A stretch of DNA of 56,501 nucleotides from a virus. Shown one piece after another: positions 21,965-26,092 of the stretch. The position numbers and the translations under genes were made by a program. Under the pieces are notes generated by a model, which searched no databases, had not been told where the DNA came from, and worked only from the letters and a program-made list of their open reading frames with translations. Numbering within the stretch: position 1 is the first letter of the stretch; every line of letters starts with the position of its first letter. The DNA lies in the IMG/VR virus record IMGVR_UViG_3300045988_086774, positions 1 to 56,501 of that record; one strand, given 5' to 3'.

Positions 21965-22481
21965 GTTCTTTCTCCAATCTCTTTAGCAGCCCATCCACGT
22001 CATACCGCCAATGGACACACAGCCTTTTTGCTTTGACCTCTATCCCCTCTTGTTCCGCCCACTGCCAAGGGATGCTCTTTCGGCTTTCGTTGTAACGGAA
22101 CGCCAGAACCTTATTGGCAGGGATTGCAAAGGTGCGGTTGACCGCCCGATAGTTGACTATCACATGGGCGGTCTGACCGCTGTACCCCATTGCATCCACC
22201 ATGTCCGTAATGTGCTTTTCCTTGCGGTATTTGCACTTTGCCTTGTCGTATTTACCGAACACCTTTTCCAGAGGGATAGAGGGCGTTTCAATGGTTTTTA
22301 GTTCAAACAGGTGGTTCATTGGGTATCGGTACACAAGGAAGTCGCAGATGTTGTCGATGGAAAAGGACAGATTTTCGTTGCCGCCGTAGTAGGCGGCAGC
22401 ACTGTCTTTCAGGCGGTAGCACCACGCATCCTTTGGCACGGAAGCTTTGAAATCCGCTTCAAACTGCTTGCCGATGTTCAT
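21948..22481 (-). CDS. recU: RecU-like Holliday junction resolvase (PD-(D/E)xK)
   Basis: MNIGKQFEADF...NICDFLVYRYPMNHLFELKT gives a D...ExK catalytic pattern with RecU-like spacing. Confidence 0.6.
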   Translation of the reverse strand: MNIGKQFEADFKASVPKDAWCYRLKDSAAAYYGGNENLSFSIDNICDFLVYRYPMNHLFELKTIETPSIPLEKVFGKYDKAKCKYRKEKHITDMVDAMGYSGQTAHVIVNYRAVNRTFAIPANKVLAFRYNESRKSIPWQWAEQEGIEVKAKRLCVHWRYDVDGLLKRLEKEHGRDA

Positions 22482-23032
22482 GCGTTGTCCTCGATTTGAT
22501 TTCCAAAAGCGTCCCATCCTTCACGATGGTTTCTTGCAAATAGTTCAATCTTTTTAGCTGTTGGGAACATATCCTCTAACATTTTATAGGCGCATTGCGG
22601 TTTATGGCTGTGATATGTAGCGGGTTCTCGAAGTATCGTTGTGTATTTACCTCTTGTTTCTTTTCTTGGCATCAACATTTTCCCGGGCTTGTAGAACCAC
22701 AAGAGATATTCGTGCGAGAACCGAACCGTAAAAGCAGGAGCAACGCCGTTTTCTTTATCCCAAACCATTCTCGCATGGAGTTTGTAGCCACGCTTTGCCA
22801 TTTGCCGTTCCGCTTCCATCAAGAACTTGTCAATGCACCACATAAACACATTGTGGCGGTCTGCTGTGTTTTCAAAGAAAACGTCTTGAATGGAAAAGCA
22901 GTCATCAAGCGAAAGAGTTTGATAATCAAGTTCTTTTCCTTGATTCGGTCTGCATTTTCTGATGTTTCCTTTTTTCTGCGGCCACGGTGGGTCTGTGTAA
23001 ATAATTTCGTACTTTTCGTTAAGTTCGTTCAT
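22478..23032 (-). CDS. MT-A70 family N6-adenine DNA methyltransferase
   Basis: IIYTDPPWPQ (DPPW motif), HSHKP, KIELFARNHREGWDAFGNQ. Confidence 0.85.
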   Translation of the reverse strand: MNELNEKYEIIYTDPPWPQKKGNIRKCRPNQGKELDYQTLSLDDCFSIQDVFFENTADRHNVFMWCIDKFLMEAERQMAKRGYKLHARMVWDKENGVAPAFTVRFSHEYLLWFYKPGKMLMPRKETRGKYTTILREPATYHSHKPQCAYKMLEDMFPTAKKIELFARNHREGWDAFGNQIEDNA

Positions 23033-23325
23033 TATTCATCCTCTTTGGGAATTCTAGGAATTGGCATCCAAAACTTGACCGGGTATTCATCATCAACCCA
23101 TTCCCCATCTTTGAACTGCATTGTTCTAATGCAGTTGCGCCAATACCAAAAATCGTAAACAACAAAATAAACCCCATTTTCACTAGGTTGTGCGTTTTTT
23201 ACGCTTGTCCATAACTGCATAGCGGTTGGAACCGTATCAATCCATTCTTCGGCTTCTTTTAGGTCAATGGGTTCTTCCATGTTCCCCAGTGCATCAATTA
23301 CATCCTCTGTGTCAACAAGTCTCAT
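23032..23325 (-). CDS. Hypothetical protein (DUF551-like C-terminus)
   Basis: 97 aa ending ...YPVKFWMPIPRIP. Confidence 0.45.
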   Translation of the reverse strand: MRLVDTEDVIDALGNMEEPIDLKEAEEWIDTVPTAMQLWTSVKNAQPSENGVYFVVYDFWYWRNCIRTMQFKDGEWVDDEYPVKFWMPIPRIPKEDE

Positions 23326-23540
23326 CCTCGTTCACCTCTAAATTCACTTCCGAGAAACCGCTTCTTGCCACGTTCCCGGTGCTTGTCCTCGTAGTTGCGG
23401 TGATACACGCTCTGGCTGTGGTTCAGCTCATGCACGAACGCCTTGCACTCCTCGAAGTCTTTCTTCTCTGCCTTGTACTTCTCGCAAGTATCGTGGCAAG
23501 CTGTGTAGCGTGATGTGCAGTTGAGACAACAGGTAATCAT
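23322..23540 (-). CDS. Cys-rich small protein
   Basis: ATG 23540 overlaps the methyltransferase stop (ATGA); MITCCLNCTSRYTACHDTCEKYKAEKKDFEECKAF... Confidence 0.5.
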   Translation of the reverse strand: MITCCLNCTSRYTACHDTCEKYKAEKKDFEECKAFVHELNHSQSVYHRNYEDKHRERGKKRFLGSEFRGERG

Positions 23541-25432
23541 TCTTCGCCGAATCTCCTTTTTGTTACAGCCATCGGGAACTCTTCGATTTCGCTTGCCCAC
23601 CGTGCAGTACCCTCGCCGTATGCTCTTTGCCAGACCAGAGGGAAACCACCTATACCATCGAACAGACTGCCCAGCTTAGGCTTTTCTTTCAGGTACGGGC
23701 GCATCCTCTGCACCAGCCAAAACCATTGTGGCAAAGCGATTGAGTTGCCCAAAGCCTTGTACCGTGGGCTGTCAGCGTACTTGTGTTTCTTGCCCTTACT
23801 GTCTGTCCAATCACCAATGTCAGTCCATCCGTCCGGGTAGCCTTGCAGGCGTTCGCATTCAACAGGTGTTAGGCGGCGTACAATCCATCGGAGTGTAAAC
23901 ACATATCCATGTCCGCCGCCTTCTCCGCTATACAACGCCGGCCATTTCCCGTATTCAGAAAAAATCCTGCGGCTCTGAACATCCCACGGTGTCAAACAGC
24001 CAGCGTGTTCAACCGCAATGGCTGTATAATCAGTGATTCTGCTTTCGTGGTCTCCCGTAATGGTCGGAACCGTCTTTCCATTTCCATTACCTCTTGCGTC
24101 AAAAACTCTGCACCTTACCAGCATATCGTTGTAAGCATCCTGTCCATTGTAACTTCCAGCGTGAGCGCCTGGCGAAAGAGTTCCTGTTTTGTCTTGAATC
24201 GGAATCGGCTGAACGATGACAAGTCCTCCCTGATTCTTCGTTGGGTTTGCGTCAGAGCAGTCGAGCGTTTTACTTACACCTGTTTCATTGAACCCGCTGT
24301 ACGGATTTGCCGATTTCATGCTGTTACTTGACAACGGATTTATGGAATACGCAACTGCATGACGGTCGATTGTGTTCAGTGTATAGCCCACTTCTTCTTT
24401 TGCGCCCAAGCCGTTCGCCCCTGCCGTATCGGCTCTGTCAACAATGTTTCCCGCAATGCAATAGCACACGCCGTGTTCATGCCGTGCCTGTAGAGTAAAG
24501 GCCGGGTCTCCATTCTTTCCAACTCCAAGACCTGTTTTTTCTCCCATCGAAATGTGTCTTGTAGCGATTTGTGTGTTTATTGGGATTATCTCCCCGGCTT
24601 GCACCAGTTGGAAAAGCGTCTGGTCTTGGAGAGTCGATAGCGTCCCGACTTTTTCTGTTTGCACAAGTGCGCCCTTTCCTCCTCCGGCACAGCCAGAGCG
24701 GATTTTAAGAGAGTACGCAGCTGCTTCTCCGCTTTCTCTCTTATCAGTTCTTTCCTCTCGTTCAGAGCGGCAAGCTTCTCCCGTCTTATCCGTTTTTGTT
24801 CTTCTGCAATCAGCATCTCCATCGCCTTTGCGGCCGCGCCCGGCTCCCACCACTCCATCATTTCCAGCAGGGCAGTTTGCAGTAAGTCCGGCAATTTCTT
24901 TCCACGTCGGGATGCGCGAATCAAGATGCCTTGACAGGCTCGTTCGCTCAAATAGTATTTCTCCGGCGCGTTGACCTGCAAAATCCACGACAAGAGCGAT
25001 ACGTTTTCTTCTCTGGGGCACTCCCCAATATTGAGCGTCAAGCTGTCGCCAAGCCAGAGACCATCCGTTTCTAACGATTGCTCCAGCTTTGCTCCATCTG
25101 CCCCCCCTATTCGAAGGTCGAGGAATTGAAACGTCTGGCTGTTCAACGCGGGCAAGTTCTTCCAGCACGGCTCTGAAATCTTCTCCTCCGTTGGAGCTGA
25201 ATGCTCCTGGCACGTTTTCCCAAACAGCGAAAGTTGGATACAGTCCATTTGTACTTGACCTCATTTCTTTTATAATCCGAACCGCTTCCATGAACAGCCC
25301 AGACCGTTCTCCCGCAAGCCCTGCCCTGCGCCCAGCAATGGACAGATCCTGACACGGGCTTCCGAATGTGATGCAGTCCACAGGCTCTATCTTGTCACCG
25401 TGAATCTTTGTAATGTCGCCCAAGTGTTTCAT
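23537..25432 (-). CDS. DNA (cytosine-5) methyltransferase with permuted motif order (IV-VI-VIII-TRD-IX-X-I-II)
   Basis: FGSPCQDLS (IV) near the N-terminus, VWENVPGAF (VI), GVPQRRKRIALV (VIII), RRLTPVECERLQGYPDGW (IX), YKALGNSIALP (X), then LGSLFDGIGGFPL (I) and WASEIEEFP (II) at the C-terminus. Confidence 0.85.
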   Translation of the reverse strand: MKHLGDITKIHGDKIEPVDCITFGSPCQDLSIAGRRAGLAGERSGLFMEAVRIIKEMRSSTNGLYPTFAVWENVPGAFSSNGGEDFRAVLEELARVEQPDVSIPRPSNRGGRWSKAGAIVRNGWSLAWRQLDAQYWGVPQRRKRIALVVDFAGQRAGEILFERTSLSRHLDSRIPTWKEIAGLTANCPAGNDGVVGAGRGRKGDGDADCRRTKTDKTGEACRSEREERTDKRESGEAAAYSLKIRSGCAGGGKGALVQTEKVGTLSTLQDQTLFQLVQAGEIIPINTQIATRHISMGEKTGLGVGKNGDPAFTLQARHEHGVCYCIAGNIVDRADTAGANGLGAKEEVGYTLNTIDRHAVAYSINPLSSNSMKSANPYSGFNETGVSKTLDCSDANPTKNQGGLVIVQPIPIQDKTGTLSPGAHAGSYNGQDAYNDMLVRCRVFDARGNGNGKTVPTITGDHESRITDYTAIAVEHAGCLTPWDVQSRRIFSEYGKWPALYSGEGGGHGYVFTLRWIVRRLTPVECERLQGYPDGWTDIGDWTDSKGKKHKYADSPRYKALGNSIALPQWFWLVQRMRPYLKEKPKLGSLFDGIGGFPLVWQRAYGEGTARWASEIEEFPMAVTKRRFGEE

Positions 25433-25486
25433 CTTTCCAAAACGCCCGTCCAGCCAGATAGCGCAGCTCTTATATAAGGTAGGCGG

Positions 25487-26092
25487 TCAGGACTTTGCCG
25501 AAGCGAAAGCCTTGCTCATATCAGTGATAATGTCATATCGGTCTTGATATTTGCTGTACACAGTCGTTCCAGTTCCAAGACCAATCTGCGTCTGGTTGAT
25601 GGAAGCAGGAACTATATAAATGCTTTCCTTCTCTTCGTTTTTTGCAATCAGAAAATAAACATCGCAAGTAGGGAATCGTTTTTCAAGATTAAACGAATAG
25701 CAAAAACTCTTATTTGCTCTGCTCGGCCTTGCCGTTTTTACATCAACCTTAACGCTGCCATTAACATAAAGGTCATAGGCGTATCTAGTTGACATTCGCT
25801 CAACCGCAAATCCATGTTCTTCCAGCAGTTTTGTAGCAAGGTCTTCGCCATACTTTCCGAATTGCGTTTCGCTTTCTTTCATTTCGATATTAAGGATTTC
25901 AGCTATTTTGTAATAGCCACCCGGAAAACGGCAAATTGCATTTGTCAACTTGTCGTTTCCGTAATACTCGCTCAATTCACTTCTTGATGGCATTCTGGTT
26001 AAACCAGTGGCAGACATACAGGCTTTCACATACAGCAAGATTTTATCTTGCGTCCAATGCGTTTTTTCTTCCCGATTCATGCGCATCTCCAA
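25487..26092 (-). CDS. PD-(D/E)xK nuclease with an N-terminal HEAR-like repeat (homing-endonuclease-like; alternatively the cognate restriction enzyme)
   Basis: N-terminal MPSRSELSEYYGNDKLTNAICRFPGGYYKIAEIL. Nuclease core GEDLATKLLEEHGF...AYDLYVNGSVKVDVKTA...CDVYFLI. AT-rich. Confidence 0.5.
   Translation of the reverse strand: MEMRMNREEKTHWTQDKILLYVKACMSATGLTRMPSRSELSEYYGNDKLTNAICRFPGGYYKIAEILNIEMKESETQFGKYGEDLATKLLEEHGFAVERMSTRYAYDLYVNGSVKVDVKTARPSRANKSFCYSFNLEKRFPTCDVYFLIAKNEEKESIYIVPASINQTQIGLGTGTTVYSKYQDRYDIITDMSKAFASAKS

What the first reader, a model, noticed from the sequence alone, without database searches (positions are those of the whole stretch)
23537..25432. Circularly permuted C5-cytosine methyltransferase: motifs IV-X come first, motifs I-II are at the C-terminus
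Seen: the 631-aa ORF starts MKHLGDITKIHGDKIEPVDCITFGSPCQDLS (motif IV). It continues with VWENVPGAF (VI), GVPQRRKRIALV (VIII), a long variable region, RRLTPVECERLQGYPDGW (IX) and YKALGNSIALP (X). Only then come KLGSLFDGIGGFPL (motif I, AdoMet FxGxG) and WASEIEEFP (motif II), before ...TKRRFGEE-stop. The in-frame codons just upstream of the ATG read ...WLDGRFGK-MKHLGD, so an RFG(E/K) remnant is present at both ends. Established: C5-MTases normally run I to X. Only rare permuted (IX-X first) or split forms are described, and the N- and C-termini are adjacent in the fold. Inference: a permutation with its breakpoint between motifs II and IV, as expected from tandem duplication followed by trimming. 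This topology may be new, and the enzyme may still be active.
Basis: partly seen in the sequence, partly recalled or inferred. Interest (0 to 1): 0.7.

Follow-up and report, generated by a model that had tools for sequence, protein, structure and literature searches.

The report
Naturally circularly permuted phage cytosine methyltransferase
A gut-phage DNA cytosine methyltransferase really does have its first two sequence motifs moved to its tail end, an arrangement that engineers had built and found active but could not find in nature, and the same gene hides a second conserved protein in another reading frame.

Summary
Window 23537..25432 (minus strand) encodes a 631-aa C5-cytosine methyltransferase with motif order III-IV-V-VI-VIII-TRD-IX-X-I-II. 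The break lies between motifs II and III.

It is not an assembly artefact. The same topology occurs in over 120 close protein clusters, in about 107 of the 150 best 50%-identity representatives, and in cultured Faecalibacterium phages.

Joining the protein's C-terminus to its own N-terminus recreates the canonical "VTKxRFPxMKHLGD" junction. A relative, P0211, carries the same X-to-I fusion but is cut elsewhere. This supports tandem duplication followed by trimming.

All catalytic and AdoMet-binding residues are invariant. dN/dS of the relocated segment is 0.11, and AlphaFold2 models the core confidently.

The topology matches the engineered "Type B" permutants (cp62M.MpeI), which had the highest activity. 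A 2018 REBASE survey reported no natural example.

Found in passing: a +1-frame ORF (24586..25248) inside the gene, present in relatives as distant as phage P1 dmt. Its codon periodicity shows selection on that frame, and it is unannotated. Hypervariable poly-G tracts switch between the frames.

The parts
23537..25432 (-). Circularly permuted C5-cytosine DNA methyltransferase ORF (631 aa plus stop). Motif order is III-IV-V-VI-VIII-TRD-IX-X-I-II.
25403..25426 (-). Motif III (HLGDITKI) at the new N-terminus. The start codon is the conserved internal Met of the canonical 'RFPxMKHLGD'.
25340..25366 (-). Motif IV FGSPCQDLS, containing the catalytic Cys27.
25199..25225 (-). Motif VI VWENVPGAF.
24989..25024 (-). 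Motif VIII GVPQRRKRIALV.
23879..24946 (-). Linker plus long variable target-recognition region (aa 163-518). Its length varies among relatives, whose proteins range from 453 to 690 aa. AF2 models it with low confidence.
23825..23878 (-). Motif IX RRLTPVECERLQGYPDGW.
23729..23761 (-). Motif X YKALGNSIALP.
23675..23728 (-). Fusion linker QWFWLVQRMRPYLKEKPK. It combines the former C-terminal helix with the former N-terminal leader. Its length is a fixed 18 aa across the permuted clade and P0211.
23636..23674 (-). Motif I LGSLFDGIGGFPL (AdoMet-binding FxGxG), relocated to the C-terminal end.
23573..23599 (-). Motif II WASEIEEFP.
23537..23569 (-). C-terminal tail AVTKRRFGEE plus stop. It aligns to the canonical 'VTKxRFPxM'. 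The TGA stop overlaps the ATG of the downstream 72-aa Cys-rich ORF (ATGA).
25433..25447 (-). Untranslated codons 'GRFGK' directly upstream of the ATG. They may be a vestige of the canonical 'RFPx' before the Met, but the evidence is weak.
24586..25248 (-). Overlapping ORF 'B' (220 aa) in the +1 frame of the methyltransferase gene. Its N-terminal half lies over motifs VI-VIII. Its conserved helical core (24847..24996) lies over the frame-A linker. A coiled-coil extension occupies 24700..24846.
25259..25262 (-). GAGG Shine-Dalgarno-like element 10 nt upstream of the ORF B ATG. It lies within the frame-A codons E-M-R and is conserved as GAAATGAGG in most Firmicutes-type relatives.
25101..25107 (-). 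G7 homopolymer (C7 on the + strand) inside both frames. The same site is G9 in Faecalibacterium phage FP_Toutatis and G14 in phage Lelie, where it shifts the frames.

Best explanation
The ORF is a genuine, naturally circularly permuted DNA (cytosine-5) methyltransferase of an uncultured human-gut phage related to Faecalibacterium phages.

Topology. The polypeptide starts at the beta-strand carrying motif III. It runs through the catalytic motifs IV-VIII, a long target-recognition region and motifs IX-X. An 18-residue helix-linker follows. The protein ends with the AdoMet-binding beta1-alphaA-beta2 unit (motifs I-II), which normally opens the protein.

Why the fold survives. The N- and C-termini of the canonical fold are adjacent, so the same Rossmann-like catalytic domain can form (inferred from the AF2 confidence and from engineered analogues).

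Likely function (inferred). The enzyme most likely methylates phage DNA to escape host restriction. It sits in the early recombination and replication module next to an MT-A70-type adenine methyltransferase.

Origin (inferred). It arose from a canonical relative by in-frame fusion of tandem copies. The 5' end was then trimmed to the conserved internal Met of 'RFPxMKHLGD', and the 3' end was trimmed just after 'RFG/P'.

Second product. The same DNA also encodes a small protein, B, in the +1 frame. This is shown by codon periodicity and ORF maintenance. B is probably an accessory part of the enzyme (inferred).
For: Topology.
- The M.HhaI alignment is permuted, and Pfam and TIGRFAM scores are above threshold.
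- The protein concatenated to itself is colinear with canonical P0268 and P0242 and with P0211 across the junction.

Not an artefact.
- All 120 best clusters are permuted.
- 107 of the 150 best 50%-identity representatives are clearly permuted.
- At least 27 of 80 IMG/VR loci are permuted.
- 10 GenBank phage records hold the contiguous X-to-I fusion, including the cultured phages FP_Toutatis and Lelie.

Functionality.
- Residues invariant across 97 permuted proteins: C27, E72, S589, L590, F591, G593, F597, W612 and E615. R141 and R142 are conserved in at least 90%.
- dN/dS is 0.11 for the X-linker-I-II segment.
- AF2 pLDDT is 93-97 for aa 515-628 and above 85 for most of aa 1-165.
- The best Foldseek matches are M.HhaI, M.MpeI and M.HaeIII.
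- Engineered permutants with this exact break (cp62M.MpeI, cp58M.SssI) were the most active of all permutants tested (PMC5944983).

Origin.
- P0211 is a complete ORF in three contigs. [quoted passage not shown]

Context.
- Neighbouring ORFs match Erf, SSB, MT-A70 and RecU-like families.
Against: - No enzymatic or methylome data exist for any member.
- The TRD (aa 165-513) is modelled with pLDDT below 50, so DNA recognition is unassessed.
- I could not inspect model coordinates. Packing of the C-terminal unit is inferred from confidence values only.
- The start codon lacks a good Shine-Dalgarno sequence (sequence).
- In the two cultured relatives the deposited consensus is frameshifted at a poly-G tract. 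The gene may therefore often be OFF.
- The NJ tree did not resolve whether permutation happened once or several times.
- The upstream 'RFG' vestige is confined to one subclade.
Confidence: 0.85

Rival explanations
1. Assembly artefact. Two tandem canonical methyltransferase genes, or a circularisation point, were collapsed into one apparently permuted ORF.
For: Tandem methyltransferase genes are common in phages, for example Javan102. The window is a metagenome-type sequence.
Against: - The same ORF, with the same ends, occurs in hundreds of independent assemblies from different studies and pipelines.
- It also occurs in isolate phage genomes.
- It lies mid-contig between unrelated genes, with an in-frame stop upstream.
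- The permuted clade has diverged to about 45-50% identity while keeping the topology.
Confidence: 0.01
2. The gene is a decaying or inactive remnant. The permuted arrangement would be a by-product of rearrangement with no enzymatic activity.
For: - Deposited sequences of Lelie and FP_Toutatis are frameshifted at a poly-G tract.
- 5 of 80 IMG/VR loci have the A frame truncated.
- The 2018 authors speculated that Type B might bind AdoMet less well.
Against: - Catalytic and cofactor residues are invariant across 97 diverged members.
- dN/dS is 0.11 on the relocated segment.
- The linker length is fixed at 18 aa.
- The intact ORF is present in most loci.
- The engineered equivalent has wild-type-like activity.
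- The frameshifts sit at hypermutable homopolymers, which looks like switching rather than decay.
Confidence: 0.07
3. The permuted polypeptide is not a stand-alone enzyme. It works only together with the +1-frame product B, giving a two-chain enzyme analogous to M.EcoHK31I alpha/beta. Homopolymer slippage would toggle between the 'A-full + B' and 'A-short + B-TRD-IX-X-I-II' architectures.
For: - B is under purifying selection. The nucleotide identity by codon position shows periodicity in the B frame (.70/.76/.46), and amino-acid identity is 67% in frame B against 36% in frame A.
- B is kept open in distant lineages.
- B is present in 72 of 74 loci, with a conserved ATG and SD.
- In five loci B is fused in frame to TRD-IX-X-I-II. 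In pairs such as L017 (G7) and L027 (G8), or L085 (C9) and L066 (C10), the difference is 1 nt in a homopolymer.
- The M.EcoHK31I beta chain is encoded in an alternative frame of the alpha gene (PMC2836561).
Against: - B has no detectable homology to any Pfam, NCBIfam or PDB entry.
- The hhalign match of B to the post-motif-VIII segment of E. coli Dcm falls at the expected place but is not significant (E = 0.24).
- All ten canonical motifs are already present in frame A.
- B could instead be a regulator or an unrelated anti-defence protein.
- Homopolymer length differences could be sequencing errors.
Confidence: 0.35
4. The permutation arose by direct translocation of the 5' 150 nt (motifs I-II) to the 3' end, or by recombination between two different phage methyltransferase genes. 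It would not have arisen through a fused tandem duplicate.
For: - Close relatives are mosaic. L011 is 98% identical to the window protein over the best-matching segment but has a different C-terminal tail.
- No full-length I-X-I-X fusion was found among the long hits.
Against: - P0211 and P0230 contain IX-X fused to I-II-III...VIII with both junctions intact, which is what a trimmed tandem fusion predicts.
- The fusion linker is homologous between P0211 and the window protein.
Confidence: 0.1

Closest known systems
[quoted passage not shown] 2018, PMC5944983)
   Same: The new N-terminus lies between motifs II and III, the native termini are joined, and the motif order is III...X-I-II. cp62M.MpeI had activity comparable to wild type.
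   Different: Those are laboratory constructs of CG-specific enzymes with short TRDs. The window protein is natural, belongs to a different subfamily (P1-Dmt / Firmicutes-phage type), has an 18-aa natural linker and has a TRD of about 350 aa.
Natural 'Type H' permuted C5-MTases (M.BssHII, M.Alw26I, M2.Eco31I, M.Esp3I, M2.BsaI)
   Same: They are natural circular permutants of the C5-MTase fold in which motif X precedes motif I. The proposed origin is duplication plus truncation.
   Different: [quoted passage not shown] The window protein is instead cut inside the large domain, between II and III. P0211 and P0230, from the window's own family, are the Type H-like forms.
Canonical relatives: the C5 domain of phage P1 Dmt, the Streptococcus phage Javan102 MTase, and metagenomic P0268 and P0242
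   Same: They belong to the same sequence family, at about 45-67% identity over aligned segments. They share the 'VTKxRFPxMKHLGD' junction and the same +1-frame ORF B.
   Different: Their motifs I-II are at the N-terminus and the protein ends after the motif X helix.
Plant DRM2 (domains-rearranged methyltransferase)
   Same: It is a natural circularly permuted C5-MTase catalytic domain, and it appears among the PDB sequence and fold matches.
   Different: The DRM order is VI-X followed by I-V (from my own knowledge, not tested here). It is eukaryotic and its break point is different.
M.EcoHK31I alpha/beta
   Same: It has a second polypeptide encoded entirely in an alternative reading frame inside a C5-MTase gene (PMC2836561).
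   Different: The beta chain carries motif IX and is needed because alpha lacks it. Here frame A has all ten motifs, and B overlaps motifs VI-VIII and the linker. A requirement for B is untested.

Membership tests
DNA (cytosine-5) methyltransferase (PF00145 / TIGR00675) | Profile score above the curated cut-off | tested here: met
   PF00145 scores 109.9 bits against 22. TIGR00675 scores 102.8 against 100.65.
DNA (cytosine-5) methyltransferase (PF00145 / TIGR00675) | Catalytic motifs IV (PCQ, with the nucleophilic Cys), VI (ENV) and VIII (QxRxR) | tested here: met
   FGSPCQ at aa 23-28, ENV at aa 72-74 and QRRKR at aa 140-144. These residues are invariant or at least 90% conserved in 97 relatives and are aligned to M.HhaI.
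DNA (cytosine-5) methyltransferase (PF00145 / TIGR00675) | AdoMet-binding motifs I (FxGxG) and II (acidic residue) | tested here: met
   LFDGIGGF at aa 590-597 and WASEIE at aa 612-617, at the C-terminus. They are aligned to M.HhaI residues 16-55 and are invariant.
DNA (cytosine-5) methyltransferase (PF00145 / TIGR00675) | Canonical linear order of motifs I to X | tested here: not met
   The order is III-IV-V-VI-VIII-TRD-IX-X-I-II. This is a member of the fold with a non-canonical topology.
DNA (cytosine-5) methyltransferase (PF00145 / TIGR00675) | Transfers a methyl group to C5 of cytosine in DNA | not testable with these tools
   No biochemical or methylome data are available.
Type B circular permutant (as defined in PMC5944983) | [quoted passage not shown] | tested here: met
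   The protein starts at M-KHLGD (motif III) and ends at VTKRRFGEE (after motif II). Motif X is joined to motif I by an 18-aa linker.
Type H natural permutants (M.BssHII group) | [quoted passage not shown] | tested here: not met
   The window protein starts at motif III. The relatives P0211 and P0230 do meet this definition.
Permutation-by-duplication products | Relatives exist that retain the fused copy-1-end to copy-2-start junction but have different truncation points | tested here: met
   P0211 has IX-X-linker-I-II-III...VIII. Its linker is 74% identical to the window's. It is a complete ORF in 3 contigs.
Two-chain C5-MTases with an alternative-frame subunit (M.EcoHK31I type) | A second polypeptide encoded in another frame inside the MTase gene | tested here: met
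   ORF B at 24586..25248. Supporting evidence comes from codon periodicity, ORF maintenance and a conserved start.
Two-chain C5-MTases with an alternative-frame subunit (M.EcoHK31I type) | The second chain supplies a canonical motif (IX) and is required for activity | tested here: not met
   Motif IX is in frame A. B matches no MTase profile. Whether B is required for activity cannot be tested here.
Multispecific phage C5-MTases (SPR / phi3T type) | Several tandem TRD modules, each conferring one specificity | tested here: inconclusive
   The variable region is long, differs in length among relatives, and contains repeated 'TL'-containing segments. This was seen by eye only. AF2 confidence there is below 50.

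The most novel reading that the evidence does not exclude
The locus is a dual-coding, switchable methyltransferase gene with three unusual properties.

(ii) It carries a previously unrecognised overlapping gene, B, of about 135 codons in the +1 frame. B is found in the methyltransferase genes of phages of hosts as different as Firmicutes, Proteobacteria and Verrucomicrobia, including P1 dmt. Its product would be a trans-acting (and sometimes cis-fused) structural part of the enzyme's DNA-recognition domain.

(iii) Hypermutable G/C tracts toggle the frames, giving phase-variable enzyme architectures in a virus.
Probability: 0.3. Interest if true: 0.88.

Novelty: new variant of a known kind. Interest (0 to 1): 0.72.

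Why it matters
Circular permutation is a textbook route to new protein topologies, and C5-methyltransferases are its classic test bed. The 2018 engineering study found that the II/III cut gave the most active permutants. It was puzzled that nature seemed not to use this cut, and it proposed a cofactor-affinity penalty as the reason.

This family shows that nature does use it, abundantly, in human-gut phages. It also provides a natural series: canonical forms, Type H forms with the same fusion, and Type B forms. That series allows the duplication-and-trimming model and the cofactor-affinity hypothesis to be tested on real enzymes.

Separately, the +1-frame ORF is a long same-strand overlapping gene shared by distantly related phages and is absent from RefSeq annotation. 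If it proves to be a subunit or regulator, annotation and functional studies of a very large family of phage methyltransferases, P1 Dmt included, will need revision.

Tried and rejected
- **Assembly collapse.** Rejected on the basis of independent assemblies and isolate genomes.
- **The 'RFG remnant at both ends' as evidence for duplication.** Kept only as weak evidence. It aligns with the canonical 'RFPxM'. However, the frame differs by a 1-nt indel in L001 and L002, and other permuted subclades lack it.
- **Single versus multiple origin.** An NJ tree of 119 core sequences placed the canonical representatives in two blocks among the permuted ones, so this is unresolved.
- **Full tandem I-X-I-X fusion.** None was found among long homologues. 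Their extra length comes from inteins or large TRDs.
- **Identity of ORF B.** Nothing usable came from any of the following:
  - Pfam, including a search at E <= 10
  - NCBIfam
  - PDB by sequence and by profile
  - Foldseek of the AF2 model
  - PHROGs, which gave only a weak hit to phrog_16143, 'DNA methyltransferase' (E = 4e-4)
- **B core compared with the post-motif-VIII element of classical enzymes.** hhalign against E. coli Dcm put the only alignment at the expected place (Dcm 279-337), but with E = 0.24, so this is not supported.
- **Programmed -1 frameshift from B into A.** No conserved X_XXY_YYZ heptamer occurs near the end of B. Only homopolymer runs were seen, in a minority of loci.
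- **Upstream 201-aa ORF as a partner nuclease.** No Pfam, NCBIfam or PDB match.
- **Literature searches.** No description was found of a natural Type B permutant or of the overlapping ORF.
Full report
**1.

The 631-aa ORF is real. It lies on the minus strand at 23537..25432. Pfam PF00145 scores 109.9 bits against a cut-off of 22, in two separate stretches. TIGR00675 also passes its cut-off.

A residue-level phmmer alignment to M.HhaI shows the permutation directly:
- HhaI 58-136 matches query 4-89 (motifs III-VI).
- HhaI 146-169 matches query 125-148 (motif VIII).
- HhaI 237-290 matches query 486-537 (motif IX).
- HhaI 16-55 (motifs I-II) matches query 589-630.

An in-frame stop lies 18 codons upstream of the ATG. 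The upstream ORF belongs to an unrelated family of unknown function. No motif I therefore precedes PCQ in this polypeptide.

The N-terminal 'HLGDITKI' is motif III.

**2. It is not an assembly artefact, and it is not rare**

- Two GenBank gut-phage contigs from another study carry the same arrangement with different lengths, 591 and 453 aa.
- A search of about 5.8 billion proteins returned 8000 hits. All 120 best clusters start 'M(K/I)HLGD...' or slightly upstream of it, and have motif I after motif X.
- An exhaustive HMMER search of 50%-identity representatives found 32,137 hits. Of the best 150, 107 are unambiguously permuted, about 20 are canonical, and most of the remainder also start at motif III.
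- In IMG/VR, at least 27 of 80 fetched loci are permuted and 26 are canonical.
- Ten GenBank phage records contain the contiguous motif X-to-motif I fusion. They include the cultured Faecalibacterium phages FP_Toutatis and Lelie.
- The window itself resembles uncultured human-faecal phage contigs.

**3. Anatomy of the permutation**

Canonical relatives read '...WASEIEPFPxxVTKxRFPxMKHLGDITKI...' across the site. The permuted proteins begin exactly at that conserved Met. They end 2-10 residues after '(R/H)F(P/G)'.

I concatenated the window protein to itself and aligned relatives to the dimer:
- Canonical P0268 residues 3-223 align colinearly to positions 587-804, at 67% identity.
- P0211 residues 171-457 align to positions 517-798, at 61% identity.
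- Both alignments run straight across the window protein's C-to-N junction with a one-residue gap: 'AVTKTRF-PGMKHLGDITKL' against 'AVTKRRFGEE|MKHLGDITKI'.

The old C-terminal helix and the old N-terminal leader are joined by an 18-residue linker. Its length is constant across 15 diverged permuted sequences.

**4. Origin**

P0211 is a complete 540-aa ORF, flanked by unrelated genes in three independent contigs. Its order is TRD-IX-X-I-II-III-IV...VIII. P0230 has the same layout. P0211's X-to-I fusion region is 74% identical to the window's.

The two proteins are therefore different cuts of one fused tandem. This is what the permutation-by-duplication model predicts. I did not find a full I-X-I-X fusion. 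An NJ tree did not settle how many times trimming occurred.

'GRFGK|M' aligns with the canonical 'RFPx|M'. But close relatives read 'GRAFGK|M' because of a 1-nt difference, and other subclades have unrelated upstream sequence.

**5. Evidence that the enzyme works (indirect)**

- In an alignment of 97 permuted proteins diverged to about 45-50% identity, the following are invariant: catalytic Cys27 with its neighbours P26 and Q28, E72 and V74 of ENV, motif I residues S589, L590, F591, G593 and F597, and motif II residues W612 and E615. N73 of ENV, R141 and R142 are conserved in at least 90% of sequences.
- dN/dS for the X-linker-I-II segment is 0.11.
- AlphaFold2 gives pLDDT above 85 for most of residues 1-165 and 93-97 for residues 515-628. 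The C-terminal strand-helix-strand-helix unit is modelled at 587-628. The variable region is below 50.
- Foldseek's best matches are M.HhaI (rmsd 1.5 Å over 146 columns, E = 2.8e-8), M.MpeI, M.HaeIII, DNMTs and DRM.
- I could not inspect coordinates, so packing of the relocated unit is inferred.

**6. Comparison with what is known**

Slaska-Kiss et al. 2018 (PMC5944983) built 21 permutants of M.MpeI and M.SssI. Those cut between motifs II and III ('Type B': cp62M.MpeI and cp58M.SssI) were by far the most active. cp62M.MpeI was comparable to wild type.

[quoted passage not shown] Later full-text searches found no report of a natural Type B enzyme. The window protein is therefore a natural representative of a topology known only from engineering. 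It is a new variant of a known kind. It belongs to a large family in which canonical, Type H and Type B forms coexist.

**7. A second gene inside the gene (found in passing)**

The +1 frame contains a 220-aa ORF at 24586..25248.

*Distribution.* tblastn of its first 134 residues hit 138 phage records. These include P1 dmt and phages of Streptococcus, Vibrio, Pseudomonas, Sinorhizobium, Akkermansia and Mycobacterium. In all seven annotated cases checked, the hit starts at offset 1 mod 3 from the annotated C5-MTase CDS. In phage Lelie the hit lies at the start of the annotated orf49, which joins the start of B to the methyltransferase tail because of a homopolymer frameshift (see section 8).

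*Selection on frame B.* Across 49 non-redundant sequences, two blocks behave oppositely (the same result with 7 distant phages is):

| Block | Nucleotide identity by codon position | Frame read | Amino-acid identity, frame B | Amino-acid identity, frame A |
|---|---|---|---|---|
| 31 codons after 'ILFE' | .70 / .76 / .46 | frame B | 67% | 36% |
| Around motif VIII | .73 / .83 / .51 | frame A | 42% | 74% |

*ORF maintenance.* Shuffling synonymous codons of frame A leaves the B frame open with probability 0.0004-0.13 per lineage.

*Start signals.* B was detected in 72 of 74 IMG/VR loci. In 52 of those 72 its ATG lies exactly 9 codons upstream of the ENV codon and is preceded by GAAATGAGG. Median length is 138 aa.

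*Annotation status.* A profile search found 4036 database proteins, all 'hypothetical' or 'uncharacterised', with no Pfam domain apart from one frameshift chimera carrying PF00145. In 493 RefSeq E. coli genomes, every listed row annotates only the methyltransferase over this stretch.

*Structure and function.* AF2 predicts a disordered N-terminal 80 residues, which lie over the conserved part of frame A. Three short helices form the conserved core. In the window's variant a long helix follows, encoded by the 40-codon insertion that reads as low-complexity sequence in frame A. The function of B is unknown, because every family and fold search was negative. Its resemblance to the segment after motif VIII of classical enzymes is not significant.

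**8. Frame switching**

In five IMG/VR loci, B is fused in frame to TRD-IX-X-I-II, and frame A stops 64-109 codons after motif VIII. Sister pairs differ by one base in a homopolymer:
- L017 has G7 and L027 has G8.
- L085 has C9 and L066 has C10.

The window has a G7 run at 25101..25107. The same site is G9 in FP_Toutatis and G14 in Lelie, which shifts the frames in both deposited genomes. This looks like slipped-strand phase variation, but sequencing error at homopolymers is not excluded.

The natural B-TRD fusions, together with the M.EcoHK31I precedent, are the basis for the hypothesis that B is an accessory part of the enzyme. I give that hypothesis about 0.35.

**9. Context and likely role**

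On the minus strand the gene order is: Erf, SSB, a 201-aa unknown, the methyltransferase, a 72-aa Cys-rich ORF whose ATG overlaps the MTase stop, a 97-aa unknown, an MT-A70-type adenine methyltransferase, and a RecU-like protein. No restriction enzyme was recognised nearby.

The enzyme is most plausibly an orphan anti-restriction methyltransferase of a phage early module. This follows from established knowledge of phage methyltransferases and is not shown here.

**10. Limits**

- No activity, specificity or expression data exist for any member.
- The TRD is not modelled.
- The number of permutation events is unresolved.
- The role of B and of the homopolymer tracts is inferred.

Noticed in passing
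window 24586..25248 (-); also L003 (P1 dmt), L004, L006-L010, L011-L090: A conserved +1-frame ORF ('B', about 135-220 aa) lies inside the C5-MTase gene, in both canonical and permuted relatives from phages of very different hosts. Codon periodicity and ORF maintenance show selection on this frame. It is unannotated in RefSeq and has no Pfam family.
   Followed up: yes
window 25101..25107; L005 (Lelie) ~2636; L094 (FP_Toutatis) 2185: A poly-G tract lies inside the gene. It is G7 in the window (in frame), G9 in FP_Toutatis and G14 in Lelie, and both of the latter are frameshifted. 29 of 80 IMG/VR loci have at least one G/C run of 7 or more in the MTase region. This may be phase variation.
   Followed up: partly
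L027, L036, L039, L050, L066 (compare L017, L014, L085): In these natural variants, ORF B is fused in frame to TRD-IX-X-I-II and frame A is truncated after motif VIII. Several differ from their sister loci by one base in a G or C run located at the end of the B core.
   Followed up: partly
P0211 (L091 1637..3259, L092, L093) and P0230: These are Type H-like permuted members of the same family (order TRD-IX-X-I...VIII). They share the window's X-to-I fusion linker, so they represent a second cut of the same fused tandem.
   Followed up: yes
L003 1114..4155 (P1 record OP279344 dmt); P0185: An intein (Hint plus LAGLIDADG domains) is inserted at motif IV, reading 'GGTP|C...HN|CQAFS'. This places it at the catalytic cysteine of the C5 domain.
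   Followed up: partly
window 22478..23032 (-): A second methyltransferase lies two genes downstream. It is MT-A70-type (PF05063, E = 5.9e-18), 184 aa.
   Followed up: no
window 25487..26092 (-): A 201-aa ORF lies between SSB and the MTase. It is absent at this position in L001 and L002. It matches phrog_28936 (unknown function) but has no Pfam, NCBIfam or PDB match.
   Followed up: partly
window 23322..23540 (-): A 72-aa Cys-rich ORF (MITCCLNCTSRYTACHDTCEKY...) has its ATG overlapping the MTase stop codon (ATGA), which suggests translational coupling. No family match was found.
   Followed up: no
window 23879..24946 (-), compared with L001 and L002: The variable region is built of short segments containing 'TL'. 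These segments differ in number and identity between close relatives (proteins of 453, 591 and 631 aa). This is reminiscent of multispecific phage methyltransferases, but it was judged by eye only.
   Followed up: no
L011 (IMGVR_UViG_3300045988_073754): This near-identical phage (98% over the best-matching segment of the protein) has a different C-terminal tail ('...AITRKRFPDVEES'). This indicates mosaic recombination within the gene.
   Followed up: no
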